From Fistulifera solaris (taxonomy: Eukaryota): a DNA stretch of 64,000 nucleotides. The stretch covers positions 62,001-126,000 of the forward strand of contig AP026136.1 of the NCBI GenBank assembly GCA_030295235.1, read 5' to 3'. The notes beneath the pieces were generated by a model that searched no databases, had not been told where the DNA came from, and saw only the letters and a list, made by a program, of their open reading frames with translations. Below are positions 17,310 to 56,041 of the stretch, piece after piece. Numbering within the stretch: the first letter of the stretch is position 1; the number at the start of each line of letters is the position of its first letter. Both the position numbers and the translations under genes were made by a program.

Positions 17310-19675
17310 TCAAGAAGCTCGTCCGAGTAAGGATTCTGATGATATCACGAGCGTCCCTTGGGCATAACGAGGGATACTGGTTATTAACCCAAACTCCTGC
17401 TCTAACCATTCTTTTAAGTAGTCACGCAATGATGTCTTGTTGGATTGTTTGCCCACACCAGTAATGAGGGTAAGCTCTTGGTTATCCACATGTTCATAAT
17501 GTTTTAACAAATAGCGACATGCTGCGCGGGCTACAGGAAATGTTAACCCCGACAAATTAATTTCATTCGCCGAATCCAAGAAGCCATTTAGAAGCAACTT
17601 TCGCTCCACGGCATACGCTAGAATGCCATCTACATGTGCTTGATAGGCTTCTGATTCGTCTGCACCCGCTAAAGCCCCTATCACTTCCGTAATGGTAATG
17701 ATGTCCGGCACTAAATTCGCTTTCCCCGTGGAATATCGCCGTTTTGGCACACCCGCCTCTGCAGTGCGCGTCAGCAACAACGTTTTCGGTTGCGCCGTAC
17801 CTTGTTCCAACAATTCATTCCACAACTGCCAAGATTGTTCGGGCCTGTGTGCCACACGCAACGCGTTAAAGACGGCATTATACGTGACCAAATCCGGCTG
17901 TATTTTGTGTTGTTTCATTTGCGCCAACAGTCGCAAAGCGTGATCTGCTTGTCCATGCTTGCCACAACTCGCAATTGCAGCCGTATACACCAATCGATTG
18001 GGAGGCTGTGCACTATCTTGCATCTCTTGGATGTATTGGAGTGCCAACTCCCATGGACCATAACAGCAGCACATAATGACAGCATTGTACGTAAATCCGT
18101 CGGGTTGTAAGTTTTGCTGCTTGATTTCCTCCAGTAAATTCACGGCGTGTTGCCAAATGGGAGTAGTCTCATTGGCAGATATAGTTGCATTGGTAGTTGT
18201 GGTCACATCATTCGGTTCCTTGGCTTGAAGTTTTGCGGTTTGTGCAAGCGCTTGCAAGGCGGCATTGTATGTTATTAACGGAATGGTCGCGTCGACAATA
18301 GTTGCTTTTAATGCATGCAGAAATTCCAATGCCCGATGCGGCGCCGCTTGCATGGCCACACGATACGTGAAACTATTGGGAACAATCTGCTGTTGTTTCA
18401 TTTCGTCCAAGAATTGCAAAGCTCTCTTAGATTGTTTCAATGCGACACAAGCTTCCATGGCCGCAGTATATAAATACACATCCAACAGACCCAATTTATC
18501 TTGCGCGACTTCAAATAAGACCAACGCCCGCTTCCATTGTCGATCCTGCAGACACGCTCGTACTACGTGCGTGTACGTGACGACATTGGGTGCCAAATTG
18601 TATTTTGCTGCAATTCCTGGAGGAGCTGCAACACCAACGGTACGTTGCGTTCCCGTTGGGCCAAATACATGACACGATTGTACGTTTCAATGGTCGGTGA
18701 TTGCGTGCGTTGCAAATCGCGCAATAAGGATTGCGCCGTCGCCAAGGGCACGTGTCGATGAAATAAAATGGCATGATAGCATTCGAGTGATAGTTTTGCC
18801 GCATGATGTTGTCGTAAAAATTCCCATAATGTCCAAACATTTCTCCACGATTGTTGTGATGCAGTCTTTTGTAACAATTCGAGCACATCCGCAGCGGTTA
18901 AGATGGCTTCCGCTGCTTGCAATAATGACAGGAGGGTCTGGATGGGACAATCTTTCGCATGAATACACACATTCCACAAGGCACGATAAGTTTCCACTTG
19001 TGTAGAATCTATTACAGAGACGTTGAGACGAGATTGCTGTTGGAGTAATTTCCATTCACGCAAAGCCCATTTCCATTGCCCCAATCGACACAAGACTTGA
19101 ATGGCATCATTGTGCGTTTGTGACGATTGTCGCAACAACGACCACACCTCGTCGTCGTCGTGGCGACTCGACGTAGGCGTCAAACAGCAATGTCGCAGAA
19201 TATATTCGACATGCATTCGAGTCGGTTCGACCGTTTGTTTCAAGGCATTCCAAACTTCCACCAAGAGTGAGTTGTCAGTCGACGTAGTATTATTCGTACT
19301 ACTGCTCGTAGCCTGCAAGCATTTGAGAAAAGTCTGTTCCGTTTGTACAAATTTTAGCTGCTGCATGATTCGTAACGTTTGCAAGACACCTTCCCAGTCA
19401 TTGTGGCGTATGTAATCCGCCAAATGATCATCGCATTGTTCGGGTGTTAACCAGAGTGAATCATCCGTCCAAGTACTTGTCGTTTCCGAAGCCATCGGAT
19501 TGCTTTCTGAACAAGAACGTTGTGTTCTGCGACAAAAGGACGTTATCTGCTTCCGTTGATGCGGTATTCTCTGCGATAGAAGAATACTAGAAGGATTGTA
19601 GATTGTTGTAAAGGACGTCCAGCCATGACAGGACGAAAGGATGAAATGTAGTGTTAATAAAACATAGAGAATCAT
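17310..19675 (-). CDS. Pentatricopeptide-repeat protein with C-terminal Smr domain, probably plastid-targeted; frameshift near 18600
   Basis: PPR motifs PNVVTYT, PDGFTYNAVI, PDLVTYNAVF; Smr-like INLSGL...LITGVGK; N-terminal signal MILYVLLTLHFILSSCHG-W. Confidence 0.85.
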
Positions 19676-19923
19676 TTCAGTACACAGCGAAGGGGAAAGA
19701 CAGAAGGAAGCGCCGAACATTCTCATTATTATTAGAGTAAAGAATGATTCACAGCGATAGAAGGTTCGAGGTTCGAAGGTAGGGTAGAGGATGCATTGGT
19801 AGTAAAACATTAAAAAATGGATCTGTTGCGATTTGTAGATGATGTAAAAACGTCGCGTGCATTTTTTGAATGCGGTCGCCGGAGGGACGAGTGGAGCTTG
19901 TTTGCTTCATGCTTCATGACGAC

Positions 19924-20200: not shown

Positions 20201-20829
20201 GAAGCTATCATTTCTCTAGCATCTTTTAGCGTGAATCTCTAAAAAGTCAATGCTATGTTCTAGATGACAAGTGTGATGTGAATGAACATTGTGACTCTAG
20301 TAATGCAGACAAAGGTTTCAATTGGAACGTAAAGTAACCAACCCAACATTGATTGCTCATGACTCATGACTGACTCCAGTCTTGGAGGATTTGACACGTG
20401 TAAACCTGGCAACACAGCTGCAGTTTCATTTTCGTTGGTTCCCAAACACGTTTCGAATGAGACACAGAATAGAAACGCTTCTTACTTTGCAGTGGATACT
20501 CGTACTGTTGGAACGTCTGAGGAACAACCCCTATCCCAACTTCCCACCTTGGAATCTCCGAAATTCGCGCAACATGGTGTGATGAATCGAAAAAACAAAC
20601 AAACCAACGATAGCGAATGCAAGAAGTGAATCATTGCTTATCAAACGCTTCCTTTCTCAGGTTTCAAACGTTCACAATCGAAAGCGACAGAAAAAGGATG
20701 ATTCGTCAAGGCGAAGTTATCTTTTGCATCCGATAGTATTTCAACGACAAACAATTAGATTACATTACACATTACATTACATTACATTTAATCAATCTCT
20801 CCGAATATCTCTCACATGTTACTTGAAGA

Positions 20830-22647
20830 ATGAAAGCCGATTCCTCCTCCTCCTCCTCCTCCTCCTCCTCCTCCTTCTTCTTCTCTTTGCAACATCCAAA
20901 CAATGAAGAAGAATTTGTTGCAGAACCGCAACCCGCGAATCATGACTGCGAAGATCACATAAATGAAGTAACACCCGCAACAACAACACTCGTTTCGTCG
21001 TCTCCCTCCGAAGCAGAACCCTCTCACCCAAAAGTCCTTCTACGAAACCATTACCAGTCCAACGCTCCGCCCGTTTGTCATTATCAGTACTTCCTATTTA
21101 CTTTTCACGATCACAGATGGTGCCATTCGCATGATTGTTTTGTTGCATGCGTACAACAAATCCTTTTCGGCTCTCCAAGTCGCCTACATGTTCACCTTGT
21201 ACGAACTGGCCGGTGTGGTGACCAATTTGGCCGCGGGCTTTCTTGGGGCACAATGGGGCATCCGTTACACACTCTTGTGTGGATTACTACTGCAATTACT
21301 GTCGTATGGACTCTTGTTTGGATGGAACGATGATTGGTCGCAACAAACGGCCATTGTCTACGTGACGATCGCACAAATGTTTGCGGGGATTGCCAAAGAT
21401 TTGACCAAACTGGGGGGCAAGACGGTGACCAAATTAGTTACACCGGAAGATAAAGAAACACAGTTGTTTCGATTGGTCAGTCTTCTCACGGGATGGAAGA
21501 ATTCATTGAAAGGAGTCGGATATTTTTTAGGGAGTGCCATGTTGCAAGTCTCCTATGAACTCGCTTTGTGCGTAATGATGGGATTGGTCTTGTTGGCTTT
21601 GCCCTGGGCGTATCTGGGACTCGATAACAATTTAGGGACGGCCAAGAAAGAGAATGCGACGTGGCAGTCGGTATTCAAAATGGACAATACCAATTTAAAC
21701 TGGTTGAGTGCGGCACGGTTGTTTCTCTTTGCCAGTCGTGATTTTTGGTTCGAAGTACCTTTGCCCTTCTTTTGCGTAGCCCGGCATGTGAGGGATTGGG
21801 AGAAACGGTGTGCGCTTTGGGAGAGGACGATATTTGTCAAGTAGGAGCGGTTTGTGTCAATGAAGTTTGTACGGCCTTGAACAGTGGCGGAGGATGCGGT
21901 GGATTGGGCATGAATCGTGTCGTTGTCGGTGCCATGTTGGGAGGATATATTATCTTGTACGGGCAGGTTCAATCTTGGACACCGCAATGGGTCACGGGAC
22001 CGTTGCAACAAACCCCACCGAACAAATGGACCGAAGTATGGTGGGGTGTTATCAATAGTATTCCGACATTGATTGCGGGTTGTTTGTTGCAATTTGCACC
22101 GGCCTTTGAAAACAATGGTGTGGCGGACGCGGAAGAACGGAATGAAGTCGTCATGACGATTCTTATGATTGTGATTTTGGTCACATTTGCTTTCGTCTTT
22201 GCCGTCAATTCGTCGATTCATTCGTATTTGATTGTGGCGTATGCGAGTATGGACAAGGTTGCTGTCTCGGTCGGTTTCTATTACATGAGCAATGCCGTGG
22301 GACGACTGTTCGGAACGTTGGGATCGGGATTGTTGTACACGTATGTCGGTGAAACCGATTGGGCCACGGCCGCATCGGGTCATGATGCCGTAGCAGGTTT
22401 GGCGGCTTGTTTCTTTGCTGGTACAATCTGTAGCTTACTGGCGGCGTGGATCACAATTCGTATTGATGACAACAAGAGTGGACTGAAATGTGGTCCATGT
22501 TGGACCATTGTTCCGGTGAATGAGGATTTTGACGAAGGCGACGACGAACAAGTAACAGTCGAACAACAGCAGCCTTCAGTTGGTGTCGTCGTCGTCGTCA
22601 AAGACGAAGTCAACCGAGAGGAGGATGGGTATATCAAAGCCCTCTAG
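20830..22647 (+). CDS. arsJ: ArsJ-type organoarsenical efflux MFS transporter; frameshifts near 21050 and 21772
   Basis: SYLLFTITDGAIRM, YELAGVVTNLAAG, GIAKDLTKLGGK, LTGWKNSLKGVGYFLG, LSAARLFLFASRDFWF, FAVNSSIHSYLIV and VGFYYMSNAVGRLFGT are characteristic ArsJ motifs. Confidence 0.85.
20842..20874 (+). repeat. (TCC)n microsatellite encoding poly-Ser
   Basis: About 11 TCC units seen directly. Confidence 0.9.
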
Positions 22648-22786: not shown

Positions 22787-23503
22787 TTACAAATCATCTT
22801 GCAAATCCAACACCAGATGTTCTTCCCCCGCTTTAAAGGCCGGTTTCCCCAAATACGGACAGGAAGCACAACGAAAGGCATCTCCCAAACCACATTTTCC
22901 ACACGAACTGGCCGGAACTGCCTGCGGCTGCTGTTCGAGCAAGACATTACCGTCTTTGCGACCGCACGTACAATCCGCACACGGTTCTCGACCTCCACAA
23001 TCGTCTCCTTTCGTGGCGACCGCCGACAAGGCCGGTGGTGGTGCCAACAAATCACTTTCCAACAAGGAGTTTTCATCCAACACAGGAGGAGTCGTCGTCG
23101 TCGTCCAAAGAGGTTTGGCCTGCATACGAACATCGGGGGCACGTTTTTGGGCCTGTACCGTTACCGTGTCGGTGGCTTTACGTTCTCCGGTCGCTACCAG
23201 ACCTGCCAGTAACAAAGATGTTTGGAGTGTCGATGCAATATCTGGTGTGAAATTGCCCTGTACATGAATTTGTACGTGGGAAAAAGTCGAAAAGGACGAC
23301 AAATGCATCGGCGAATTCCATACTGTCGCAAATTCATCGGCTTTGACGTAAATATCTAGATTGGTTCCATCTTGTGGTGGCTGTGCATCCGTCCAGAGTG
23401 CAACACGACATACAGTCGATAGTGATGATTCATCGAGAGACGATGGGATTGTCGCATTCCCCAAAACAATACTCGTGCACGATCGAGTTGTTGCGGCGGT
23501 CAT
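22787..23503 (-). CDS. DRE2: Anamorsin/Dre2 Fe-S cluster assembly protein
   Basis: C...PCADCTCG and [29 protein letters not shown] motifs. Confidence 0.93.
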
Positions 23504-24639
23504 TTTGCGTGTTTCCGTGTGTGTGGTAGCGTGGCGTTATGTTTGACAGCAAAAGGAGCAATCGAATCGAAATGCAAATAATCAATTAATATTGCAGAAC
23601 AGAAGAGAATGAACTTGAAGAGAAGAACGAATTATATTATCTCAAATGATTCGTTCGTTTTGCCTTGTCGATTATTTTTTTGAATGTGACTGGAAGCAGC
23701 AGCGCGTGTACCGTGTACCGGTACTGGTACCAGGTACCGGTACCAGGCTTCGCGTTTGTGTCGTGCTCCAATTCGGATTGCGTCTCATGACTGAAATTTC
23801 AGTCACGGCGAAAAAAGCACGAAGCATCGTTATCTATACCTGGTAGCTACAAAAATCTTACTCACGACACTGCAATTTGTGATGCTAGAGCCCGTCTGTG
23901 GCTGCTTTTTTGGCCATCACATACACAGGGACTATGGGATAGAAGCCAGATTGATCCAGAAAGACGCTTGCATCGACGATGCGCAAACGTTTTCAACACC
24001 ACAAACACGAAATAATATCCTCGTCCCCTTCGGCGTCTAGCTCCTGCGGGGAGCTTTCTTCGTGCTCCCACACACAAACACAAACACGGACACCAAACCG
24101 GAATCTTATCTTAGCGGTACCGATGCTACACACACAAGGACTTTAGTTACCGCTAGGACAAATGAAAGAGAGGGTTCGATGACGTATGTCAAGTCGTTTT
24201 CAAGCCAGAAGAGTAAAAAGTCTTCGTTGGAATTCGTGACCTTTATTGCAGAATGCAGAACGGCAAGTGTGTCACTTTTCCCCAAAAGCCAAAAGACAGA
24301 ACTTTCATCACCTTATCGACCACATTTTTACACGAAATACCCTGGTACCCTGCTTCTCGGCATTTTCCAGCTCACAGCTCACAGACGACTCAGAGCCCTA
24401 CTCACAGCTTCAATGTCTGACTGCTAGAAGAATGTAGATGATCAAAAGCTAACTTCAATGACGTCGGCGGCGTGTGCCGATGGGCATCTCGGAACTTGTT
24501 GTTTCTCCACTTCTCCGCCGGACGGCTTTTTTTCGATCTTTCCATCATTCGGTCCTTTTCCACATCTTCCAAAGATCTCATTCTTTTTCGTTTTTTGATT
24601 TTTTTGTTGGCATCCAGCACACAAGTTTTTGTTTTCTTC

Positions 24640-27191
24640 ATGAAACTGACGGCTCATTGGGGATCCGTCTTGTATTTGTCTTCTTCATTGTTATTGTTGC
24701 ATCCGACTGCGGCCGCTCTTTTGTGAAACTACTACCGAAGGACTCACTGGACTGGGCGAAGAATTTACCTTTCCGTCGAAACTATCGATCGTCGATTTTT
24801 CGGCATCGGTGACTTACGCTACTTTGGCACAAGGTACGATTAAATGAATCATTGAGTTTACAAGTACTTATTTTGCTATTGTATGCCCTTCTCTTACCCA
24901 TCCGTGTTCTGCTTCACAGGCGCAACACCCTTTGTCAAAATCATCGCGGCGTCGGTACAGCCGGTCGTTTCTCTTGGCGAGGACGGTACTCTGACGATTG
25001 CCCCTGAAGGCTGCAGCATAGACGGAGCCCCTGTCGAAGGCGTTCCATCGGCCCCTTCGCCTGTACAAGCTCCTGTCGAAGGAGGAACGGACGGAGGTGC
25101 TCCAGTTGTTGCACCGGAAACACCGACCGCCAGTAGTGCCGCAACATCGGCTACACTCTTTTCTCTTCCGTTCTTTTCCCTGTCAACAAGATGACTTCGT
25201 TGTTCACGACATTGACTCTGCTTTCTACCTTCGCCTACGTGCAGGGTTCGAATCATGAAGGATCATGTATTCCGACTTTGACCATTGAAATTGGTGTGCC
25301 AGAAATGGCACCCGTACGACAGAACTTTGGTGAAACTGACCACTACTTGGCCGCGACGGTCGACACTGTGACGTGGGGATACTACGATCCGACGGCCACA
25401 GCTGAGACGGCAGCTCTCACCATGGCCTCGGGTGAGACGGTAACTGTGGAAGTGATTACGCATCATTCGAGTCACGACTACGCGAAGATGATTCGTGGTG
25501 ATCCGGCGGTCGAAGAAATCTTTTACTGGTCGGACAATCAAACAGAAGCTACGAAGAATGAACCGAAACTCCCTGGAACTGGTGTCCATTTGGTGACGGG
25601 CCCGATCAACGTAGAAGGTGCCATGCCCGGTGATATTCTTCAAGTCGATATCCTCGAATTGGATCCTCGTTACAATGTAAGTCATGTATGATGTGAAAAA
25701 AAAGTGTCGCTGGTTCGTTCGTCTCAATTATTGTTCTTTTGTGTTTCATATTGATTCGTTTGAAAGCCCGCTACTGGACGTTGCTACGGAACCAATTCAC
25801 AAAAGTTTGCCGGATACCAGTATCGCGTCGGCGAAAAGCGTGACGGCACTCCCTACGTTCGTACGGGTGGAACGGAAGCGATCACGGTCTTTGAATTCAT
25901 TGAAGACGATGCTTCCAACATGTTGTATGGTGCGCCTGTTTACATGTAAGTCATTCTTTCTTGGTGGATTTTTTTCGTATGGCTTGTCGTGTCTCGCTCT
26001 CAAAACAGTCATGTCCTCTATTCAGGTATCGTTTTCCCAACATGACGGATCCCGACGGAAACAACCGCACGATTGACAATAATCCCTCGGTCACTGTCCC
26101 TCATGAATTCAACCATGGATACAATGGAACACTTCTGGAAGAAGATCCCATTGTCTACCCTCCCGGATACGATGCGACTTTTGTAAGTACCAAAGGAAGC
26201 AACAAAAGATTGTCGATGACTACGAATAATTGTCGTTCACACATGTTTCCCATTCACACAGGTCACGGACGAAGGCGGCATCTTGTATTTGAGCCCGGAA
26301 CAAGCCCAATTGGACTGGAAAGTCCCATTGCGTCCCCACATTGGTACACTGGCGGTCATGCCCAACAATACCGGCAATTACTTGGACGAAGAAGCGCAAG
26401 GCGGTGCCAGTACCATTCCTCCGTCCCGCTTTGGTGGCAACATTGATGATTGGCGCATTGGCAAGGGTGGCACCATGTATTACAAAGTTGAAGTTCCTGG
26501 TGCCTTGTTGTTGGTCGGGGACACGCACGCGGCGCAGGGTGATTCGGAATTGGCCGGCACAGCCATGGAAACCAGCATGACGGCGAAGTTGCGTGTCACG
26601 TTGCACAAGGCGGATAGTTTGCCCAAGATTGTGTCGACCGTCGAATGGCCATTGTTGGAAACGTTTGACAAGTTTGTCGTGCATGGATTTGCGTTTGCGA
26701 ATTATTTGGATGATTTGGAAGATCCCTCAACGATCTTTGATGAAGGTGCTAGTTTGGATCAGGCTATGCAAGACTGTTTTGTCAAGACGCGTGATTGGTT
26801 GATGGATGTGTACGACTTGTTGGAAGAGGAAACGATTGCGTTGATGACAACTTCAGTGGATTTCGGTATTACGCAAGTTGTCGATGGTAACTGGGGTGTG
26901 CATGCGGATATTCCCAAATGGGTCTTTGATGATTCTGGAGCTCCCTACGATTATTCTTGCACAACTTCTCAAGGACCCGGTCGTCGTCGTCGTGGCCTCT
27001 TGAATCATCGCGAGCGTCGTTCTTTGTTTGCCAAGATGGTGGGTGATGATGTCGAAATGGATGCTTATGCTTCTCAGTTGTACAACAAAGTGACCGCTTC
27101 TTGCGCCGCCTGTGGAGATCATCACATGCGTGAATTGTTGGCGGAGAAGTTGGTTCATGCGAAGTTGGATTTCGCTCATGCGCGTGCTTAA
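24640..27191 (+). CDS. Acetamidase/formamidase (FmdA/AmdA) family protein with N-terminal signal peptide and extension; 4 introns, 2 probable frameshifts
   Basis: TVTWGY, GVHLVTGPINVEGAMPGDILQVDIL, PPSRFGGNID, GDTHAAQGDSELAGTAMET. GT-AG introns at about 24834-24919, 25677-25766, 25946-26026 and 26183-26261. Confidence 0.85.
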
Positions 27192-31452: not shown

Positions 31453-33943
31453 TTAAAACGGCACATCGCGAAAATCATCGGGATGAGGCACTTGAACTTT
31501 CGAGCCCGCTGACCATCGCGAATTCGCTGCGGCAGGACGTCGTGTACGTTTTACTCCTTCCAGTCGCGCAGTGAAACGCTGTTTCAAATCTCGAAATCCC
31601 ATTTCGTCATAAAAAGCTATAATTCGATTTTCATTCATGGGTTCCATACGTAGCTCACTCACTTGACGTTGACCTTCCGGGAAGGTCATGTCCTCTACGG
31701 GCAAGTCACCAACTAACGTCACCAGTGCTTTGGAAAGGCGCGCTTGTTCCAAATGCTCTTCTAGTTTCGAACGCCGCGCCTTTTGTTGTACATCTTGGAC
31801 ATGGTCCAATAGGTACTCCAATGACCCGAATTCTCGGATCAAATCGGCAGCAATTTTCGGGCCAATACCCGGCACACCCGGAACATTGTCTGCCACATCG
31901 CCTGCTAATGCCAAAACATCACCAAGCTGCTCGGGTGTAACATTCCACTTTTCTATGACCTGAGTCGAGGTCACGCGCTCCATTTTCATAGGATCAACCA
32001 TATGAATGACCGTAGGACCATCATCTCGAATCAGTTGCATCAAATCCTTGTCACCCGAAAGAATGTGCACGTCGAGACCTTCGCGTTGCGCCATTCCTGC
32101 CAGTGTTGCAATGACGTCATCCGCTTCGTAATTCGATGCTTCAATCATGGGCATACCGTAGGCCAGTCCAGCCTGTCGGATAAGGCTAAATTGTGGAATT
32201 AAATCCATGGGTGCCTCCGCTCGATGTGCCTTGTATTCATTGTATAGCTCGTGTCGAAAGGTTTTGCCTTTGGCGTCAAAGACCAAAACAATGCGGGGTT
32301 GTTCTCCTTGTACCATGCGATTCAATATCAATCGGTTTAACATGTTACAAAAATCCCATGACAGCACCTGTTGGCATTCCATCGGATCGATGTATGGGTG
32401 GCATGGAATAATACGCACGGTAGATGTAAGCCGAGGCATCGACCAGTAAAAGTGGATCACCACTCGCGGTTTTACTGGTTGTTTCTGTCGTCCCGGATGA
32501 CGACGACGAGACCGGTGTCGACTGCATCGCGCTTTTCACGCGCGTTCCTTTCACCACGGCTTGTTGTTTCGACGACTGTTTCCGAATCCTTTGTTGCAAG
32601 CGCCGATATTGCAAAATCAAATCAGCCATGCGATTGCCACTCGCCGCCTTTGCTTCCAAAGCTTCCTTGTTGGTGGATTCTCCCGGAATTCCAAAGACCG
32701 CCATGGAAACTTGAGAAAGCGAATTGATATTGAATGGCTCATTGTTGTTTTGTTGATAAATTTGCTCCGTAACTTGTTGCAGTTCCATTTCCAGTACATC
32801 CACCGGAGAACGGGTGCCTGTTCCGAGTGACGCTTGAGCTAGCAAAGCACGTTTTTCTGGATCATTCTTAAGAAACGTGGATGGTGGAGGCGGTGGCCTT
32901 TTTTCAGACGAAAAAGGAGAAGATGATGCTGGTGTATATGTTGGTGGCGTGCGCTTGGAAACAGTCGGTAGATATGAATCATCTTCGTGCGCAGTTCCAG
33001 GAGAATGGGTCACAGCAGCCGGTGTTGGTGACTCCACGACACGTGGCGACTCTGTGGTACTCGCTGCTGTTGTTGAACTAGCGATAGTATAGTCATCGTT
33101 TTTGTGGTTGTTGCTGTCCTGCAACGTCATTTGTGCTCCCAAATCATGTAAGAAATCTAGCAGATCGATAGGTTCGTTGGGTATTTGAATGGGTTTCGGT
33201 GGCTGGGAATATTGCGATTGCGTTTGATTATAGACAACAGGTGCGTTTTGGCTCATCGTCGCCACGTCCGACTGTAATAGCTGTTGCTCTGGCACTGTTA
33301 CTGGCTCCTCGGATGGCGAAGACTCGACAAATGTATTTTCTTTTTCGTTTTGTGCCCGGTAAGTAAAAAAGTCATAAACAGGAAGATTGTTGATTGTGGA
33401 TGATGATTGTGGATTCGCTTTTTGTTGCTGAACATTTACCGACCCTGTAGAAGACTGCGGCGACGAAACAGTACGGATTACTGGAGAGGGTCGAGGAGGA
33501 GATACTTGAGATGAAGATACTCGCGACGGAGCATTGCTTGGTGTCACTGACGGTGATGCGCGGTTCACCGTCGCTAGAATGGGTCTTTCCGCGGATTGTT
33601 GTTTGCTTGTTGTTGTTACTTTGGCAACCGCTCTTTGTTGCGATTGCAGTTGACTCCTATTGTATTGTTCTTCTTGTCGCATCATTTCTTCCATTTCTGC
33701 TACATCCGGTTCGTAGTCGTAGGCACCACTCAAACCAACTTCCTCCCCATAGCTATCCCATTCGAATGCGGGTCGTCGATTATGTTCAGGCGGAGATGAA
33801 GCAAGAAATGATCTTGTTGCTTTTGATTGAAAAGGACGCGTTTTTGTGAAAGAAAAGGCGAAAGCCCCTTTCGTTTTCAACGTAGCAGCAATCATGACGT
33901 AGCAACAGAAATACAATGAAGAACCACGAAGCAACACGTTCAT
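31453..33943 (-). CDS. Pol I-type 5'-3' exonuclease/flap nuclease (organellar OEX-like), no complete polymerase domain; frameshift near 32350
   Basis: LLLVDASAYIYRAYY, PTGAV, VFDAKGKTFRHELYNEYKAHR, YEADDVIATLA, SGDKDL, LAGDVADNVPGVPGIGPKIA (H3TH). Confidence 0.88.
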
Positions 33944-34899
33944 GGCCCTTAGAAACAGAGAGAAGTTGTATTGATACTTTGTATTCAAACTTAATAGTTG
34001 ATTGAATGATAATGAATACAAATAAGTGCGCATTTTTCACGTTGGAGCAAATAAACATAAACGAGCCTTACTCGTGTCTGAATTCCAGTCATGGTGAAAA
34101 ACGAACACTTTGGACTAATAATACTTGCGGTTAGATTTTAGTCGTAACGAATACATTGAATGATTGCAATGTTCCTAACCAGCATTATAGTCTATAGTCG
34201 GACAATCTGGTTTTTAGAAAATGAATGCAATCGAAGGAAGTGACCTTGAAGAAAAGAATATTGGCTCTCAGAGCTCGTGACGTAACAGCTCCCCCACTCC
34301 ATCTCCATAGGAGGGTACCAACTGTGAGCTTGCTTGTATCGTGGTGGTAGCTCGACCAGCAGTTATGTTCCGGACTTGTCATGAGCTAATAAACTCCGAA
34401 GATTTCCATAAAATCCAGCTTCGTGGATATCGAAACGCACACTTGGGACTGTAGTAAACTTGGATGAACAAGATTCCGTTTGCTTTTCGTCTTACATGAT
34501 CAGCTAAGGGGGTGCGTTGCGATTTTAGCTCACTGGGGTCGTTACCTACGAGCTTCTAATGATAAAGCTATCCTAGAAACAGTTGCGATCGATTGGAAAG
34601 ATTTCGTATAGCCATGCTTCCAGCTTCCATTCAAGGACTACTTTGTAGTTTGTATTTTTGAAGTTTGATCATTGCCTCCAACAATCGTAGAGAGCCGTGG
34701 CATTGTATCAATCTTTCTCTAAAAAGTTATTGTGTCGATGTGGGGGTTGTTTGTTGCTATCACTGGCTTGCGGCTGATGGTGGAAACAGAGCGCCGATAG
34801 AGTGTTTTGTTCGCACGAGTGCACCAAATTAAATGTCCCTTGTGGAAAGTACGTACGTTGATTGTGGCAGAGCCCGTGAGAGGCGGAAAAGTTAAGGTT

Positions 34900-46964: not shown

Positions 46965-48183
46965 TTAGCGTTTGCTGGCTCGAAGAAGACTTTTTCCTCT
47001 GCTCTGCAACATGGTTTCTTTCTCAACATCGCTCATCACGTGAACGGTCTTGATTCCAACGCGCTCTTTGAACCTAAAAGATGGTAAAATGAAAAAATAA
47101 TTGAGTGTGACAATTGATGTGCTACTCTTCAAGGAGAAGTAGAGAGAATCTTACCATACTCCGTTCAAAGTTGGATAGGCCTCTAGTCGTTGAATGGTGT
47201 CTATGCCCCAAATGATGCGACCGAAACATGGATCCCCCCTGTGCAGCTCGGTATTATCCGCCGTATTAATATAGAAACTCGGGCTACCGTCCGCAGCGAA
47301 CGCTATTGTGTATGGCTGGTGTGGGTGTTCGGGACTGTATTCTTTGAATGTCACGGTTTCGAGATTGGCGTCCGAAAATTGCCGTGCCTTGTCCTTGGCG
47401 GACGTCCGATCGTAGGGTAGAGGAGCTGCTTTGATGACTTGCAAAGCATTCAAAATGAAAGAACAATTATCCCACAAATGATCCGCTACCATGGCCAAGA
47501 AGGTTTGAATGGAATGCGGCATCAGTTCGGTAGGTGCCAGCTCCACCACAAACTTTTCAGGTCCGGGTCGACCATCTGGGAATATCAACTCAAACATGAC
47601 ATGAATCGGCTCTTTTCCGTATATTCGTCTCACTTCTTCGACGCTGTCTTTTTGTACACGCTGCTTGAGTGTCAGTGCTTTCGAAGTATGTTTATCGACA
47701 CGCTGCTGCAACTTTTTCATTTCCGTCAAAGCGCGCAAATTGGCTACTTTCATTTGTTGTTGAGGATCCATTCCAGTAGTCGCTTGAAGCATTCTATCGA
47801 CGGCATCTAATTCTCGCTTCAATTTATTCAATTCTGATTCTGCTTTCCCCATAAGTTCTTCTAGCGTTTGTCGATTGTTTTGCATATAGACGACTTGTTG
47901 GGATGTGTAACTCACGGCCGTTCGCGACAGTTGTATCACAAATAAGGCTGATGCTACGCAACCGACAAAGAACCACGATATTCGAGATTTCCGTATCGCC
48001 TCCTTTTTATTGATGGGTTGCGATTTATATTGATGAATGCCAGAGAGCGCTACTCGATCGCCCCTTGATGAAAATGAATCATCAAGAGAACTGGAACTGA
48101 GCTGGAGATTGGAGCTTGGCTTACATGTTAATTTTAACAGCCGAGGGCTGAGCTCCAAGTCGTCTTTCGACGCATCGTTCATG
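46965..48183 (-). CDS. Type II membrane protein, coiled coil plus cyclophilin-like domain (paralog 1); intron 47074-47154
   Basis: TM segment, coiled coil, FVVELAP..MPHSI.TFL, FYINTADN..H.GDPCFG. Splicing restores W-FKERVGIK. Confidence 0.78.
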
Positions 48184-49028
48184 ATTGAATTCAGATGGTT
48201 TGTAATGGTTTGTAATGGTTTGTAGCCATAACAAGCAAACAGCTGCGAATAAAAAGGCAACCATCGGGGAAAATGCATGTGGCAAGAAAAGTGCCGCCCG
48301 AAAGCTCCTCTCGACAGTAACGTTTTGAGTACTCCAAAGACCTGGGAACGAAAACGCGATGTCCATCAGTCAGGCGGGAAAAAGCTTCTGCTAGCCATAT
48401 CAAAGCATATCCTCCCGTGTCTTCAACACAGCGAACGTTTATTCAGCGAATACCTTTCTATCATTATCGGATGTAAAAGCTGAGGAAAGAATGACTCATT
48501 CCATTCAAAGCCTACGTTTATTTAGGCTCTGTCGGATATTTATCGATGTAGGGGCAACCCGGATATCGAGTAGGTTGACCACCCTTGTTAACGGGGTAAA
48601 ATTTGCATCGATGTTACTTATACCTTCATTGACATGACTTAGGCGATCCATGGAATGCCATTGGGCAACTATGGAGCGTCAAACGTGAGGAAAGACGACA
48701 AATCCATCGAAGTAGAATTCTACGTGAAATTGGATGTACTAGTAGGCCATGTAAGTCATTTGCTGGGACCCGATAACTGATAAAGAGAGGACGATGCAAA
48801 AGCTTGATGCGTAAGATCATTAGCAATGCTTCTTCTACTCCGAATAATTGCTAATTGGTTAGTAATCTAAGTTTTTGTACATGATTTCGAATATACGTCC
48901 CCGCTCTTGGCTAAATCGTCCCCACCAGACAAGTTATTTCTTGTGTACACAGTGCTTCATCCGTATCTTACTCATGAGGCTCGATAGTTGATGATTTGTC
49001 TCCGGTAACCAAAACGACTGAAAAACAA

Positions 49029-50164
49029 TTAAACACGTGTCTTGAACCGTTTCTTTTGGTCGATAACGACACTTGAATTGTCGAGGAGTGTTGCCGATTT
49101 GATTCCCACACGTTGCGTGAACCAAACCCCGTTGCGAGTGGGAGAAGACTCCAGACGCTGAATGGTATCAAAACCCTGAATAACTGTTCCGAAGCATGGA
49201 TCTCCTTCGTGGGCCAACGTATTATCGGCCGTATTGAGAAAAAAGTTGGGACTACCGTCGGCCGTGAAACCCATTGTGTACTTCTGATGCGGGAACTGCG
49301 GATTGTATTCTTTAAAAGCTAGCTGATCGAGACCCAAGTCGGCAAACGATTGCGCTTTCACTTTGGCGGAACTGCCATCGTAGGGTATCGGAGAAGCTTT
49401 GATGACATTCAAGGCACTCATAATGAACGAACATCCATCAATAAGCTTGTTTGATACCATATCGAGAAAGGCTTCGACCGCATGGGGCATCAGTTCACTA
49501 GGAGCGAGTTCTAATACGAACCTAGTGGGTCCTTTTTGCCATCGGCAAACACTAGTTCGAATTCCACCCGATGTACTCCTGTTCCGTACTTTTGGTGAAT
49601 TCCGGCGAGACTGGAAGCTTGAATTTTCTTCCGCAATCCGTTTGCTTGTTTTTCAAATTGATCTACTCGGTCTTGAGCTTTCATCATCTGATGCATGGCA
49701 CGAATGTTCGAGACCTTCATGATTTCGTTCCTGTGCTCCGGATTCTGCGCCGTTTCGGACATCATGCCGATCGCATTGATTTGCCGCTTGAGGCGATCCA
49801 GCTCACCTTCCACACTGACAGACTTTTCATAGAGCATATTCCGGGTGTGTTCCATGGCTAAAACTTGTTCACGGGTATTTCCTACCACTTGTCGGGAAAT
49901 AAAACCAAAGGCGCATCCTATTATCAGGCACGTCGCAAATACCCATGACACTCGCGGAGCGGTTTTACGTCGGTAAGGATTATTGCAGTTTTCGGATGAC
50001 GATGAAGAAATCGATATTGGGACGAACGGGAGAAGGGCTTCCACATTGGGGGATTGTGGATTTGCCATGAAACGAATTTGAGCTGGACCAGTTCGCGTCG
50101 ATGCTTCCTCGCAGTCATGTAAATGCGAATGCAACTCGAAGGAATCGCTGTCATCGTCGCTCAT
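49029..50164 (-). CDS. Cyclophilin-like membrane protein (paralog 2); frameshift near 49535
   Basis: ORFs 49511..50245 and 49029..49490 together align end to end with the neighbouring paralogs. Confidence 0.78.
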
Positions 50165-50535
50165 TGTGAATGCTTCTTCAAGAACTGATGTGCGGCAGGC
50201 AATTGATACACATTTCGAAGATGACTTGTACCTGTAATCGTTCAAAGAAATAGTAGCAACAAAGCTTTTTTCGTTTTGCTTTCATTATTCGTTTTGATGC
50301 ATTATTTGATGCCGCATGCACGCGTTGCGTTAATGGTCTTAGTCATAAAAGGTTTTTACTATACGCCGAAGTGTACGCTGAATGACCCTTTAGCTTTTAC
50401 GGACGCTGACTAGCGACTAAGGCCAGAATCATGACTTGCAATCTTTTAAAACCATTTCCTAATTATAGATTGTTGCTTGACTTCTAACATACAGCCTATG
50501 TACAAAAACATGCGCGCAAACCATGAATAGGGTGC

Positions 50536-51672
50536 TTAAGCTCGACGACTCTTTTGTCGAAGCTTGGCCTGTTCATAGCTAATGCTGTTTGCTTCTATGA
50601 TTCGGGCGGCTTTGATACCAACACGCTGAGTGAACCAAATTCCATTGCGTGTCGGTGATGATTCCAGACGCTTCACCGCATCAAAGCCCTGTATGACTTT
50701 GGCAAAACACGGATCTCCTTCATGGGAATGAGTATTGTCGTCCACATTGATGAAAAAGCTGGGGCTTCCATCGGCAGTAAAGCCCATGGTGTACTTTTCG
50801 TGGGGGAAGCTTTCGCTATATTCCTTAAATGCCAGTTTGTCGAGACCGAAATCGGCAAATGACTGTGCCTTGTCTTTCGCCGAACTGCCGTCGTACGGCA
50901 ATGGGGCTGCCTTGATAAGATTGAGCGCGTTCATGATGAAGGAACATCCGTCCACGAGTTTGTTGGATACCATGTCGAGGAATGTTTCGACCGAATGTGG
51001 CATGAGTTCACTGGGAGCCAGCTCAATCACAAACTTGGTCGGTCCGTCTACTCCGTCCTGAAACTCGAGTTGAAATTCAACGTGGTGTATTCCGTCACCA
51101 TACTTTTTCGATATACCCGCTAGACTCAATGCCTGTACTCGTTCTCTTAAAAGCATAGCTTGCTTGGATGCTGTGTCGACTCGTTTTTGGGCTTTGTTCA
51201 TCTGGTGCATAGCCCGAATGTTGGAGACTTTCATTTCTTCCTTCTCCTGGTTATGTTTATGTTGAGGATGATTCGAGTTGATGGTATTAATCTTTTTCTT
51301 GAGTTCCACGAGGTCATTGGAGACGCTGGTGACTTTTTCTCTCAGTAATTGTCGGCTGGACTCCATCGTGGATACTTGGGCGGCAGTGCTTTGTATGGTT
51401 TGCCTCGCTACGTACCCACATATGCAGGCAATCAATACGACACCGAGACATATCCACGACGCTCGTTTGGATTGCAGGAAAGCATAGGAAGTGCTATCAG
51501 GGTGTAATGAAAAGCCCTCGATGTCGTCGTGATCGGATAAAGCTTGTTGAAACGTCAATGGACTATAACTTTGTGATCGTTTGTACAAGAAGCGAGTGTC
51601 GCTCTCCTGTTGTATATCGTTGCTTTGGCTTCGTACGAGTCGAGTCGGTCGGCTTTCCGATGAATTTAACAT
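50536..51672 (-). CDS. Cyclophilin-like membrane protein (paralog 3)
   Basis: Intact 378-aa ORF with the same architecture. Confidence 0.8.
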   Translation of the reverse strand: MLNSSESRPTRLVRSQSNDIQQESDTRFLYKRSQSYSPLTFQQALSDHDDIEGFSLHPDSTSYAFLQSKRASWICLGVVLIACICGYVARQTIQSTAAQVSTMESSRQLLREKVTSVSNDLVELKKKINTINSNHPQHKHNQEKEEMKVSNIRAMHQMNKAQKRVDTASKQAMLLRERVQALSLAGISKKYGDGIHHVEFQLEFQDGVDGPTKFVIELAPSELMPHSVETFLDMVSNKLVDGCSFIMNALNLIKAAPLPYDGSSAKDKAQSFADFGLDKLAFKEYSESFPHEKYTMGFTADGSPSFFINVDDNTHSHEGDPCFAKVIQGFDAVKRLESSPTRNGIWFTQRVGIKAARIIEANSISYEQAKLRQKSRRA

Positions 51673-52431
51673 CGTCTCTTATTTCCTATGCGGTCTTCAT
51701 TCGCCTACAACACAGAGTGACTTGTTGCTTTTATTTTTCTTTGCTAAAGGAGAAATAAAAGCGCCGATAGCGCTTTTCGCTTTCTCCTCCCACTTCCGTT
51801 CAACAGCTTTGCGCCAGCGGTAAATTACCATAACAACGAACAACAAACCCAGTAAAAAGTACCGCGTACTACATTTCACGACCACGAAATTTGTTTGGGA
51901 CTATGATTATTTGTAATTCCTATCTTTGGGCCTATTTTCCTTCTAAATCGCCTATAGAAGCTCAGAAGCATTATTTGAACTTTGATGTGTTCGGACTTTT
52001 TACAAAGCCATCTTCAGTACAAAGTACTCAGCGGGTGCACTCGTCTCATGTCAAAGCTCGAGAGCTACAGAGAGGGATCTCATTTTTTTTCTCCGATGAC
52101 GACAAAGAACAGTGTTATTACTCTTTGGTTACGCAGGTCTATTCTAAGAATTAAATAGTCTAGTTTAGCTACATCCTCATTCGGTTGAGATCAAGACCAC
52201 TAAGGGCGATAGATTGGTTTCCAAGGTGACCGGTCAATAATTTTATCAAATCGTACGTTGGACGTCGACACTACAAACGCTGTCGATAATTACGTGCATT
52301 CAAAGTACCATAGCGACGATTCCAGGAGGTACTAGCTATCTAGCCTTAACCCATTTTTTTAAAAGATAAAAGCTGTCCTAACCAGAGCATCCTTTGCGTC
52401 TGCCGCAATCGCAAACATTTGAATGCAGACG

Positions 52432-55400
52432 CTACTGCTTGTTCTTCGATTTCTTGCCAGCGGACTTGCTCTGCTTTGCAAGCTTGCTCGCGCCTGCTGT
52501 TGATATTTTAACATCGGCACAAATTGTTTGAATCATATCGTTGTCGGGAATCTTTTTGATGTACTCTTTGAATCGATCGTGACTAGCTGTACCTTTGTTT
52601 TGATCATCACGCAAGAATATTTCCTGGCATTGTTTGCTAGCTTTTCCTCGTTTCATGGCGCCAGGTGTCAACTTGATCCGATAGGTATACTGAGAAAGCG
52701 TCTGATATGGTGCCAGCACAGGAACCGCATAGAGGATCATGTCCTCGGGGTGTGGCTTTCCAGTCAATTTTCCTAGTTCTTGCACATCGTCCAAAGCCAT
52801 GTCCTCCTGGTCAAGATCTACAACGCCTTCCTCGGCTAGTGTCTGCTTCCATTCTTTCACGGCAGCGTCCTTCTCCTCTTTTGTTTTGCGCTTCGCAGCA
52901 GTTGCGTCATTTTCGTCATCCATCTTTATATTTTCGTGGCCAAACTTCTTTATAGTACGGATAATTCCACCTAAGCTGGCCGAGAAGTGGTCAACACGGC
53001 TTGTCCGCTTCAGATTCAGCAATCGACGCGCCGCCATGGTTTGCGCTTCGATACTGAGCGATTGCAGCTGCTCGAGTGTATCTCCGTCAAATTTATCCCA
53101 ACGAGCAACCTTATCCGCTTCTTCCCCAACAGTCACACACTCTGCCAATAAATCACGGATGCTATACTCCAGCTTACGAGCGATTTCCTTAGGATCTTTG
53201 ACGAGAAGTGCAACTGTTTCAGCAGCGAGTTGTTGTTCAGTTTCATTCTTCGTATTAACTTTTTTCTTGGGCTGGTTCTTCTTATTCTTTTTACCTTGCA
53301 GCGCAACCATCGCCAACTCACGGTCTTCGTCATCTTGATCGGCGTACTTGAGCATTTTCTTTTCGCCTTTCCTCTTTGTCCTCGTTTCGCAGTAGACTTG
53401 TCGTTAGCAACTTTCGTCTTCTCGCTCGCGGATTTTGATACCGGTGTGCTGGGACGCTCTTCTTGCTTCTTTTGACTTATTATACGCTGCGCCTCTTCCA
53501 ACGACGAATACTTTTTCAATAGCTTCCGTTCCTTGACTGAAAGTCCACGCTTAGATTGTGCTTTTTCGTTACCACTCACTTGATCCTGTCTGTCTTCGTC
53601 ATTGCCATCACTATCGACGGACTCATCCTTTTCATTGGTGTCGACATTGATCGACACGCTGCTGTCCTCCGCGTTAGCTTCTTCGACTTCTGTGGTTTCG
53701 CCTGGTTCCTCAGCCGACTGTTCCAATTCGGCTTCATAAGAACCATTATCGTTAATAAGGTTATCCCTAGTCATCGTGACGGATTCATTATCTGGTGGTT
53801 GGTCTTCCAACAATGCCAACGCGACGTAATCTTTTCGCTCGTTAGCGTGCCTTGCCAAGGTGTCAGGATCGTCATCTCCTAATCGAAACAAAATTCCCAA
53901 CCCCAGTTCAAGCGACGCAGGCTTCAAGTAATTCTTCTTTCCACGAATCATAAAGGAACCTGTCGTCAAGTATTCTCCCGATGGCGCTGTTTTGGAGACT
54001 TGGTGCGAGTAGACCCACCAAGCGGAGGTGATCATTTTCTTCTTCCACGCAACAGATTGGCATACTGTCCAATGACCAGCCTCGGACAAAGCCTGTGGAC
54101 TAATACCATTCGTTGCAGTGGTGGCTGCGGCTTGTAGAGACGCAGCTTTACCACGTACAATGCAGGAGGCTGCGCCGGCCACGTCGGCATGCAAATATAA
54201 ATCTTGCTTTCGGAGATAGCGCTTGACCAGTAATTCATTCTGCTGTGCGTCTTTACCGCCCAAAACCAGGTAATTGTCGGATGTAATGAACCACAGAAAC
54301 TTCTCATACCAGGCTTTCTTGTGCTGTTGTTTAGTCAAAGCGCGGACGGTTTGGTACTGTTGCTGTTGAAACTGTTGTTGTGCTTGGTGCTGCGCTGCCA
54401 GTAACGCTTGTTCTGTCTTTTCGAGAGTCTTGGCAGCTTTCTCCTTGGAAGCACGGTATTGTGCAAACATGCGATTTGCGTTGCCATGCGCCGTTTCAGA
54501 CAACTCCAAAGTCACCTTGATACTTTCATCGTCGTCCTCCAGTGTGTCCGACGGCAATCTCAATACCATTGTGTTGTCGTTCAAATGCAAGTGATGAATC
54601 AACATTGCAACAGGATTTTGATTTTCCTGTTCGACACGAACAATTTCGTTCAACTGATCCCAATCCATACCGCTGTTCAAGGCAGAATTGACCACCTGTA
54701 ATGCTTGTTCCACCATCACTGCGTGCTGCTGCACAGCGCGAGCCTGTTTTGCCATTGTTCGGCTGCCACTTGCAGCGACTGAACACGATCCGTCTGATCT
54801 TGTTCGAGTTTCTGCAGTTTGTTCTGCATAGCTAATCGAGCTGACTTCAATTTGGCTTGGTGCTTTTGTTGCCATAGTTGTCCAAAGAATAAATCGACCG
54901 CTTCCGAGAACGAAGCGCACTCTTGCACCAATTTGTGTTGTTGATCTTGATGCTGTCGAAACAAGTACGGCTGAAACTCTAAATAGATTTTCGCTGGTTG
55001 GCTGCGATTATCTTTGTCGTCATTATTTGGAGTCTCAATCTGGTTACCAACGCCCTCGTCGTCGTCCAGGCGATACAAGAGAAATCCTGCTTGTGGTGAT
55101 GTTTGTTGCAATGATTCCATAATTCTTGATCCTTCTTTTTCCAGGGTTTTTATCAAATGAGAACATTCATTTTTCTCTAAAGGAAGCATGTGTTGAGGTG
55201 ACACGCCCGCTTGCAATAAACAATGCTCGATCAAAGCCGGCCCGTAGTGAGAATAACCCGAGGAATGTTGCAGCAGCAGCCACTTCCAATTCTTTTGCTT
55301 CTGCTTTTTGCTCTTTTTCCTATTACTTTGATTCAAATCCGTCGGTAATGAATCTTGCAATTGCTCTCGCATCCACGCATCTATTCGATCCCAATCATTC

Positions 55401-56041
55401 GATGACAAGAAGCCTTCTTTCTGGAAAGCAGCAGAAGTTGCAGTCGTGCTTGCTGCCGACGTTGTTGTCGTCGTCGTTGCCAGAGTCACCGGATACACGT
55501 GCCCTACTTGCACTTGCACAGTGATAGATGTTATTGATGGTTGTTCTCTGTCTTCCAAAGGTGATGGCGTGTCACTGCTCAGCTGATAGGTATGACTTCG
55601 AAGTAGCGCCAGAATTTCCCAATTGTTCCTGGCATCACAAAGAATGAGATTGCCTTGCGCATATAGCTCCAAAATGAGTCCATATTTTCCCTTATCGGGT
55701 GCCGCAAATGTCATACAAACCACACGTTCATTCGACGCACCCAACTGAGTGATTTGTTCGAGTCGCAATCCTCGCACGTGTTTCCTTAACTTCGCACAAA
55801 AAGGACTCGGAGCCGTCGTATTCGTATTCCGTCCCGTCGTCGATACATGCAAACGAATTCCACTTTCGAGCACCAACAGCTCATTTGCCTTGTGCTGTTC
55901 GAATTTGATCCAGTACAAACTGCCATTCGTGTCGTCGTTGTAAATATTCACGACGCGTTGACCGACGAGAGATTGCAGTTCGGCCACCATGGCGGTCACA
56001 TCCAAGCCGTCAAAGCGGACTTTTGTAGCACTAGCTGTCAT
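52432..56041 (-). CDS. NEMF: Ribosome quality control subunit NEMF/Rqc2; frameshifts near 54750 and 53360
   Basis: PSPFCAKLRKHVR, LILELYAQGNLIL, WYEKFLWFITSDNYLVLGGKDAQQNE, QVSKTAPSGEYLTTGSFMIRGKKN, KYADQDDEDR, APY..KLTPG..KRGKA. Confidence 0.93.

What the first reader, a model, noticed from the sequence alone, without database searches (positions are those of the whole stretch)
20830..22647. Eukaryotic ArsJ arsenate-detox exporter with a Cys-rich insert
Seen: all hallmark ArsJ motifs occur in a nuclear gene with no apparent intron. A roughly 40-aa insert with 6 Cys (ACEGLGETVCALGEDDICQVGAVCVNEVCTALNSGGGCG) follows the WF-x-x-x-LP motif, and there is a C-terminal CGPC. Known: bacterial ArsJ exports 1-arseno-3-phosphoglycerate made by a co-encoded GAPDH. 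Inference: this alga may pair ArsJ with its own glycolytic GAPDH, since no gapdh lies in this window. The insert could be a disulfide-bonded extracellular module or an As(III)-binding module that I do not recall in bacterial ArsJ. A horizontal origin is possible.
Basis: partly seen in the sequence, partly recalled or inferred. Interest (0 to 1): 0.7.

Follow-up and report, generated by a model that had tools for sequence, protein, structure and literature searches.

The report
Diatom arsenate exporter with disulfide cap
This diatom gene is an intact copy of the already known arsenate-export pump ArsJ; it carries a small cysteine-knotted cap on its outer face that bacterial and green-algal copies lack, and it most likely works with a special enzyme made elsewhere in the genome when phosphate runs short.

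Summary
The gene is real and intact. Its three frames reproduce GAX10376.1 (605 aa) letter for letter; the two frameshifts are single-base assembly errors absent from short-read contigs. That protein is already a leaf of a published arsJ tree (PMC9812998, Suppl. Fig. 14), so eukaryotic ArsJ is known and old, not a fresh transfer.

Not found in print: (1) a ~40-aa insert in the outer TM7-8 loop, with six Cys in 121 of 122 close relatives (eight in one) and absent from all 149 parsed bacterial-type loci; variants gain or lose Cys in pairs, which points to disulfides rather than As(III) binding; (2) a dedicated ArsJ-type GAPDH on other contigs (passes NF033735), next door to arsJ in Mayamaea and one metagenome contig, whose inferred Phaeodactylum orthologue rises about 50-fold under phosphate starvation.

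The 'glycolytic GAPDH' idea is therefore unlikely. The scan already noted this GAPDH in this genome (e1-7505819) and the green-algal cluster (e1-561054). Verdict: new variant of a known system; the cap's function is untested.

The parts
20830..22647 (+). arsJ-like coding sequence, 605 aa, intronless, 12 predicted transmembrane helices (MFS fold); shown in three frames because of two single-base assembly errors
21030..21033 (+). apparent frameshift 1: one base too many in an A run; assembly error
   Evidence: X1 contig lacks the base, depth 15.9 of 15.9, one contig; P0123 is continuous here
21770..21773 (+). apparent frameshift 2: one T too few in a T run; assembly error, also present in the homoeolog on G000:C11
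   Evidence: T present at full depth in the contigs of X1 to X4; same gap in L002; P0123 and P0003 continuous
21772..21909 (+). Cys-rich insert in the loop between TM7 and TM8 (residues 315-360; Cys 320, 328, 336, 342, 347, 356), predicted outer/luminal face, small beta-hairpin module, probably three disulfides
22480..22500 (+). GLKCGPC motif just after TM12, predicted cytosolic; shared with many other eukaryotic ArsJ, nearly absent in bacteria
   Evidence: [LVF]xCG after TM11 in 121 of 122 diatom-type proteins, 51 of 90 further eukaryote-type proteins, 1 of 77 parsed bacterial loci; LxCGxC in 106 of 122
20232..20239 (+). single match to YGAATCTH (recalled as the diatom PSR phosphate-starvation motif), 598 bases upstream of the ATG; not significant alone
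   Evidence: 128 of 500 shuffles reach it (P 0.256); the motif comes from memory

Best explanation
The gene encodes a working ArsJ-type MFS exporter of a diatom. When phosphate is scarce and arsenate enters through phosphate transporters, a dedicated cytosolic ArsJ-type GAPDH (genes on G000:C38 and C39, unlinked here) uses arsenate in place of phosphate to make 1-arseno-3-phosphoglycerate. ArsJ exports it, and it falls apart outside into arsenate and 3-phosphoglycerate. The 40-residue insert is a folded, disulfide-bonded cap on the outer (ER-lumen, then extracellular or vacuolar) face between TM7 and TM8: Cys320-Cys356 closes the loop and the four inner Cys knot a beta-hairpin. It was gained once in a branch that holds diatoms and some unnamed algae. 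Shown here: intact frame, family, conservation and pairing pattern of the Cys, existence and class of the GAPDH, linkage in relatives. Inferred: topology (from the model and MFS rules), the disulfides, the substrate (from Pseudomonas and Chlamydomonas work), phosphate control of arsJ itself, and any function of the cap.
For: Exact match to the intact 605-aa protein; indels absent from X1 contigs. NF033734 is the only NCBIfam hit. 12 helices, mean pLDDT 83.7, insert blocks 88-97; MFS fold. Six Cys in 121 of 122 relatives, eight in one, invariant in 111 of 111 aligned rows while the spacers vary. The loop is acidic like the other outer loops (6.2 D/E, 2.4 K/R). Two-Cys variants keep only the first and last Cys (P0143/P0414, P0217). 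All three distinct seven-Cys variants (P0125, P0131, P0134) have one extra Cys in an enlarged TM3-4 outer loop. ArsJ-type GAPDH P0274 scores 473.5 against a cut-off of 450, as do 4 of 5 further homologues tested; it is found across many diatoms at 82-92% identity over the searched part. Mayamaea arsJ and GAPDH are consecutive records GKY93705/6; L023 holds them head to head about 260 bp apart. Phaeodactylum GAPDH_3 (Phatr2_23598) log2 +5.64 and +4.19 under P deprivation (PMC5825098 S1). Chlamydomonas arsJ mutants are arsenate-sensitive (PMC7826186).
Against: The protein misses the NF033734 cut-off (354 of 400), as do three other diatom copies (339-350). No arsenic or GAPDH gene flanks it here, and L021 (8.4 kb) also shows no GAPDH. 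No transport or arsenate assay exists for a diatom copy in what I read. The link P0303 = Phatr2_23598 is by elimination among six GAPDHs, not by accession. I could not identify Phaeodactylum arsJ in the P-deprivation table. The single PSR-like site upstream of this gene is within chance. The 122-protein set came from a query that contained the insert, so it is biased towards carriers. Six diatom-type proteins with six Cys in the insert also have one Cys at the start of TM4, so an extra Cys near loop 3-4 does not always come with a seventh. Exporting a phosphoglycerate ester would cost one phosphate per arsenate, which is awkward under P starvation.
Confidence: 0.68

Rival explanations
1. The ArsJ and ArsJ-type GAPDH pair serves phosphate economy rather than arsenic: it moves a phosphorylated C3 compound or phosphate between compartments during P starvation, and arsenate tolerance is a side effect.
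For: Strong induction of the inferred GAPDH orthologue by P deprivation without added arsenate; paired PSR-like sites at C39 GAPDH, L023 and L025 (P 0.014, 0.012, 0 of 500); export of an arseno-phosphoglycerate would lose P.
Against: P limitation also induces the cyanobacterial gap-arsJ pair, which sits beside arsR (PMC9846622 table); algal arsJ mutants are arsenate-sensitive; seawater media carry trace arsenate (own knowledge).
Confidence: 0.14
2. The insert is a thiol cluster that binds As(III) or another metal as a sensor or sink.
For: Six invariant Cys in an arsenic-handling protein; As(III) binds three thiols (own knowledge).
Against: Predicted outer face, where Cys are normally oxidised; counts stay even (2, 6, 8), and the odd ones come with an extra Cys in another outer loop; no CxxC or CC spacing (gaps mostly 7, 5, 5, 4-6, 8). 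The cytosolic CGPC is the better thiol candidate.
Confidence: 0.07
3. ArsJ here works with the ordinary glycolytic GAPDH (GapC).
For: No GAPDH within the window; GapC enzymes accept arsenate in vitro (own knowledge); GapC2a also rises under P deprivation, log2 +1.1 and +2.5.
Against: A dedicated NF033735-class enzyme is in the genome and is the one linked to arsJ in Mayamaea, L023 and L027, in 73 of 80 bacterial genome loci and in green algae.
Confidence: 0.07
4. The gene is a pseudogene broken by two frameshifts.
For: Two frame changes in the window; the homoeolog in the same assembly is also broken at two places.
Against: Both indels lie in homopolymer runs and are absent from X1 contigs; intact proteins for both homoeologs are on record; the two homoeologs share the same missing T although they differ at about 10% of columns.
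Confidence: 0.02

Closest known systems
Bacterial GAPDH-ArsJ arsenate module (Pseudomonas aeruginosa; Chen et al. 2016, not read, cited through PMC7826186; NCBIfam NF033734 and NF033735)
   Same: Same MFS family (best and only NCBIfam hit); partner enzyme of the same class passes its cut-off.
   Different: 34-39% identity to the nearest bacterial loci; score under the NF033734 cut-off; 40-aa Cys cap and C-terminal CGxC absent in bacteria; genes on different contigs here instead of one operon.
Green-algal ArsJ-GAPDH3-PGK3/4 neighbourhood (Foflonker and Blaby-Haas 2020, PMC7826186)
   Same: Same eukaryotic ArsJ clade (support 100); same GAPDH class; C-terminal Cys motif shared with many members; arsJ mutant arsenate-sensitive in Chlamydomonas.
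   Different: No named green-algal copy has the insert; no clustering in this genome; only three PGK pairs found, none on C11, C12, C38 or C39, so no sign of a PGK3/4 partner.
Eukaryote-wide arsJ tree (Cho et al. 2023, PMC9812998, Suppl. Fig. 14)
   Same: Contains this very protein (GAX10376.1) and its homoeolog (GAX20558.1), other diatoms, Emiliania, Saccoglossus, fungi and others.
   Different: The passages and supplement part that I read name no insert, no diatom GAPDH partner and no phosphate control.
Small extracellular disulfide modules (EB PF01683, DPY PF21164, Dickkopf-N/DUF7107-like repeats, knottins)
   Same: Similar size, Cys density and beta-hairpin; weak hits only (Pfam E 0.011-0.25 in 3 of 7 inserts; Atlas TM about 0.5, under its bar; Z 2.1-2.5).
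   Different: No hit reaches a family cut-off; the module is embedded in an MFS loop and closed by an invariant NxGGGCGG stem.

Membership tests
Bacterial ArsJ equivalog (NF033734 MFS_ArsJ) | Whole-protein score of at least 400 bits | tested here: not met
   354 bits; insert-free eukaryotic copies P0129 and P0130 pass with 410 and 407. That the insert causes the shortfall is inference.
Bacterial ArsJ equivalog (NF033734 MFS_ArsJ) | Best profile match, over nearly the whole model | tested here: met
   Only family hit, E 1.2e-105, profile 2-370 of 392
Bacterial GAPDH-ArsJ module | ArsJ-type gapdh encoded beside arsJ | tested here: not met
   No GAPDH in the 64-kb window or in 20 kb around the homoeolog; adjacent in Mayamaea and L023
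GAPDH-ArsJ module (any linkage) | An NF033735-class GAPDH in the same genome | tested here: met
   G000:C38 and C39; P0274, 95-100% identical to them, scores 473.5 against 450
Eukaryotic ArsJ clade | Groups with green-algal, red-algal and other eukaryotic ArsJ | tested here: met
   FastTree clade of 50 rows, support 100; leaf of the published tree
MFS | Twelve transmembrane helices in the MFS fold | tested here: met
   AlphaFold2 model; 433 PDB matches at E <= 0.001, the 50 listed all MFS-fold transporters by title; PF07690
GAPDH-ArsJ module | Confers arsenate resistance by export of 1-arseno-3-phosphoglycerate | not testable with these tools
   Needs knockout or complementation
Green-algal ArsJ-GAPDH3-PGK neighbourhood | Non-canonical PGK3/4 beside arsJ or GAPDH3 | tested here: not met
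   PF00162 matches only on C1/C2, C21/C22, C34/C35; the search scores only the best candidates
EB / DPY / Dickkopf-N / knottin modules (for the insert) | Profile or fold match above threshold | tested here: inconclusive
   Below cut-off; the insert-only model has pLDDT 58.9

The most novel reading that the evidence does not exclude
Diatoms run the GAPDH-ArsJ route as a PSR-controlled arm of their phosphate-starvation response, and it is their main way to throw out the arsenate that comes in with high-affinity phosphate uptake (no Acr3 match in this genome). The disulfide cap is a functional lid over the exit that holds the unstable ester until it hydrolyses, or docks a partner such as a surface phosphatase, so that arsenate leaves while the phosphate of 3-phosphoglycerate is recovered. 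The long-noted induction of 'GAPDH_3' under P stress would then be arsenic defence, not rerouted glycolysis.
Probability: 0.2. Interest if true: 0.72.

Novelty: new variant of a known kind. Interest (0 to 1): 0.4.

Why it matters
Diatoms face arsenate whenever phosphate is low, because phosphate transporters take it in (PMC11665274 passage). A conserved exporter plus a dedicated, starvation-induced GAPDH gives two named knockout targets in a tractable model (Phaeodactylum). It also offers a new reading of one of the most strongly P-induced genes in a published diatom data set (row 54 of 6,016). The Cys cap is a lineage-specific addition to a transporter whose core is otherwise little changed, so it can be deleted cleanly to ask what an outer lid does. 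The gene itself is not news: it is already labelled arsJ in a published tree.

Tried and rejected
Pseudogene or intron at the frame changes: rejected. Recent bacterial transfer: rejected; the tree is FastTree only, midpoint-rooted, 98 rows with 39 bacterial rows taken from every second genome locus; the first, slower build did not finish. A family for the insert: Pfam at E <= 10 on 7 inserts, ESM Atlas and a wide structure search with a weak model gave nothing above threshold; this does not show a new fold. Homodimer prediction: no answer, score 0.00, alignment not used. Expression: no RNA holder listed on record; X2-X4 are only guessed to be RNA, come from one study and are contigs, so level and strand cannot be read. 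Single-protein scan of bacterial genomes found nothing; the alignment scan did. PSR motif: the source paper is not held and no held paper gave its letters. Accession link for Phatr2_23598: not found. Phaeodactylum arsJ could not be picked out among MFS rows. Acr3: no match in G000, which does not show absence. Literature on diatom ArsJ or the insert: searches gave only the two algal papers; the supplement of PMC7826186 was cut when stored and file 5 of PMC9812998 could not be read, so either may say more.

Full report
Observation. The stretch 20830-22647 (+) holds one coding sequence in three frames. Its two long pieces hit only NCBIfam NF033734 MFS_ArsJ (E 8.9e-73 and 9.1e-34). The three frames reproduce, letter for letter, residues 1-68, 69-314 and 315-605 of P0123, a 605-aa protein on record as GAX10376.1 of the diatom Fistulifera solaris. 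No intron is needed.

The frameshifts are assembly errors. Both lie in homopolymer runs. A contig of run X1 that is otherwise identical to the window lacks the extra base at 21030, and the missing T after 21769 is present at the full depth of X1 (37.2 of 37.2, of which 16.4 is homoeolog-type) and in the bridging, homoeolog-type contigs of X2-X4. The homoeolog on G000:C11 (95% identical over the C-terminal half) shows the same missing T and one more gap in this assembly, yet is on record as an intact 596-aa protein. Contigs of X2-X4 cover the coding part; these runs are only guessed to be RNA and come from one study, so transcription is not shown.

What is already known. Green algae carry ArsJ beside a special GAPDH3 and a PGK-like gene, and a Chlamydomonas arsJ mutant is arsenate-sensitive (PMC7826186, passages read). 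A red-algal genome paper shows an arsJ tree whose leaves include GAX10376.1 itself, its homoeolog, three other diatoms, Emiliania, Guillardia, Ectocarpus, fungi, Capsaspora and Saccoglossus (PMC9812998, one passage and supplement file 1 part 4). So 'eukaryotic ArsJ' and even this gene's label are in print. My own tree agrees: the protein sits in a clade of 50 eukaryote-type rows (support 100) well apart from 39 named bacterial rows (FastTree, midpoint root). The nearest bacterial loci are 32-39% identical. The protein scores 354 bits, under the NF033734 cut-off of 400; insert-free eukaryotic copies pass (410 and 407). I file it in the eukaryotic ArsJ clade, not in the bacterial equivalog.

The insert. 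Of 122 full-length relatives P0003-P0124, 121 have six Cys in the loop and one has eight (the two window fragments were left out, and the query held the insert, so the set leans to carriers). In 111 aligned rows all six Cys and the GGGCGG stem are invariant while the spacers vary. In bacteria the segment is 38-47 aa against 79 here, with at most one Cys, in 79 of 79 parsed genome loci (80 examined) and 70 of 70 parsed bacterial-type metagenome loci (72 examined). Among 90 further eukaryote-type proteins found with an insert-free query, 87 have the short loop, including every named green alga, red alga, hemichordate and the Pavlovales protein; the three carriers are unnamed. The 19 carriers in the tree form one clade (support 92): one gain. 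An Atlas cluster of mostly haptophyte proteins matches the insert best (TM 0.63, under the tool's bar), so some haptophytes probably carry it; I could not name the non-diatom carriers.

Where it sits and what the Cys do. The AlphaFold2 model has twelve membrane helices, mean pLDDT 83.7, and places the insert between TM7 and TM8 as a confident beta-hairpin module (blocks 88-97). Its fold is MFS. In MFS proteins with both ends in the cytosol this loop faces out (own knowledge), and the charge pattern fits: the insert is acidic like loops 9-10 and 11-12. Natural variants behave like disulfides. Two shortened forms keep only the first and last Cys (P0143/P0414 and P0217). All three distinct forms with seven Cys (P0125, P0131, P0134) have one more Cys in an enlarged loop 3-4, also an outer loop; these three may be one event, as they group together. 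Against a clean rule, six six-Cys proteins have a Cys at the start of TM4. No family claims the module. I could not measure S-S distances. I put about 80% on disulfides and under 10% on As(III) binding. The GLKCGPC after TM12 is cytosolic in the same topology and is shared with many other eukaryotic ArsJ (121 of 122, 51 of 90, against 1 of 77 bacterial); palmitoylation or metal binding there is untested.

The partner. A search of G000 for GAPDH gave 12 matches. Five loci groups appear; the pair on C38 and C39 scores best with NF033735, the ArsJ-associated GAPDH, while the four others tested score best with GapA/GapC models. The intact protein P0274 passes the cut-off (473.5 of 450), as do the Phaeodactylum, Mayamaea, Fragilariopsis and Cyclotella homologues; the Tetraparma one does not (419). 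In Mayamaea pseudoterrestris arsJ and this GAPDH are consecutive records (GKY93705.1, GKY93706.1). Of eight eukaryote-type metagenome loci, three hold a GAPDH head to head with arsJ: L023 (with the insert; 64-81% identical to P0274), L027 (59%) and L028 (39-42%, class unsure); L021 has none in 8.4 kb and four are too short to tell. In bacteria 73 of 80 genome loci hold one at 50% identity or more. In this genome the linkage is broken: arsJ lies between a PPR gene and a CIAPIN1/Dre2 gene. No PGK lies on the four contigs concerned, and Acr3 gave no match.

Phosphate control. Phaeodactylum has six GAPDHs: two mitochondrial, one plastid, two GapC2 and a third cytosolic one, 23598 (PMC2173943, passages). 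P0303 has no presequence and is not GapC-type, so by elimination it is 23598; no accession link was found. In a P-deprivation data set Phatr2_23598 rises log2 5.64 at 48 h and 4.19 at 72 h, against 1.1 and 2.5 for GapC2a and falls for the other three; under N deprivation it rises only 1.3 (PMC5825098, supplementary rows). The cyanobacterial pair also rises under P limitation (PMC9846622, table passage). A motif I recall as the diatom PSR site (YGAATCTH; source not held; PMC13187674 confirms only that such motifs were reported) occurs upstream in 7 of 11 promoters tested: once each for this gene, its homoeolog, C38 GAPDH and L021 (P 0.14-0.26 each), twice each for C39 GAPDH, the L023 spacer and L025 (P 0.014, 0.012, 0 of 500), and not in L022, L024 (about 150 bp only), L027 or L028. 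This is a lead, not proof, and for this gene alone it is within chance.

Mechanism. Most likely (0.68): arsenate enters with phosphate, the ArsJ-type GAPDH turns it into 1-arseno-3-phosphoglycerate, ArsJ exports the ester, and the cap is a disulfide-knotted outer module. The chemistry rests on Chen et al. 2016 (not read; cited through PMC7826186). The rivals are a phosphate-economy role (0.14), a metal-binding insert (0.07), use of glycolytic GapC (0.07) and a pseudogene (0.02). One puzzle remains: each exported ester carries a phosphate out of a starving cell. A lid or docking site that helps recover it is the boldest reading I cannot exclude (0.2).

Novelty. Searches found no paper on diatom ArsJ function, its GAPDH partner or the insert; subscription papers and parts of two supplements were not visible. 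The system is known and the gene is labelled in print; the cap, the diatom partner and the link to phosphate starvation make it a new variant. Interest 0.4.

Noticed in passing
window 19924, 20139, 20364, 23785, 56529 (+): A short repeated element starting TCATGACTGA...CAGTC (small hairpin) occurs 5 times in the window, three of them upstream of arsJ (0 expected by chance). One exact 19-mer has 43 copies across G000. Possibly a miniature mobile element or a common promoter element.
   Followed up: partly
proteins P0130, P0430, P0431: ArsJ homologues in three hemichordates (Ptychodera, Glandiceps, Saccoglossus; 71-73% identical to P0130, two on contigs over 27 Mb). P0130 passes NF033734. No other named animal was among the 120 listed. 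Saccoglossus is already in a published tree. Whether they keep the GAPDH partner was not checked.
   Followed up: partly
G000:C38 about 81.5-82.8 kb and G000:C39 about 84.1-85.4 kb (L012, L013): ArsJ-type GAPDH genes; the C38 copy reads as three exons and the C39 copy is split by frame changes in this assembly. An arrestin-domain gene lies downstream.
   Followed up: yes
window 22787-23536 (-): CIAPIN1/Dre2 (anamorsin) gene convergent with arsJ; poly-T loose ends at 22708 in X2-X4 fit its poly(A) site, about 60 bases from the arsJ stop.
   Followed up: no
window 17310-19906, 31453-34036, 52432-56068, 25137-27191: Several genes (PPR, 5'-3' exonuclease, NFACT, formamidase) are split over overlapping frames; more single-base errors or introns, not told apart.
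   Followed up: no
window 47151-51678 (-) and 58576-60985 (-): Three tandem cyclophilin-like genes and two tandem cyclin genes.
   Followed up: no
window 56702-58426 (+): An EXS-domain gene (XPR1/PHO1-like phosphate exporter family) 34 kb from arsJ, with one copy of the repeated element just upstream (56529).
   Followed up: no
L023:15384-18037 (+): A pyridine-nucleotide oxidoreductase frame followed by an AIRS-domain frame, which looks like a fused selenophosphate synthetase, 4 kb downstream of an insert-bearing arsJ.
   Followed up: no
L145: A contig labelled Bifidobacterium breve (MAG) carries an arsJ that groups with freshwater-type Actinomycetota; the label may be wrong.
   Followed up: no
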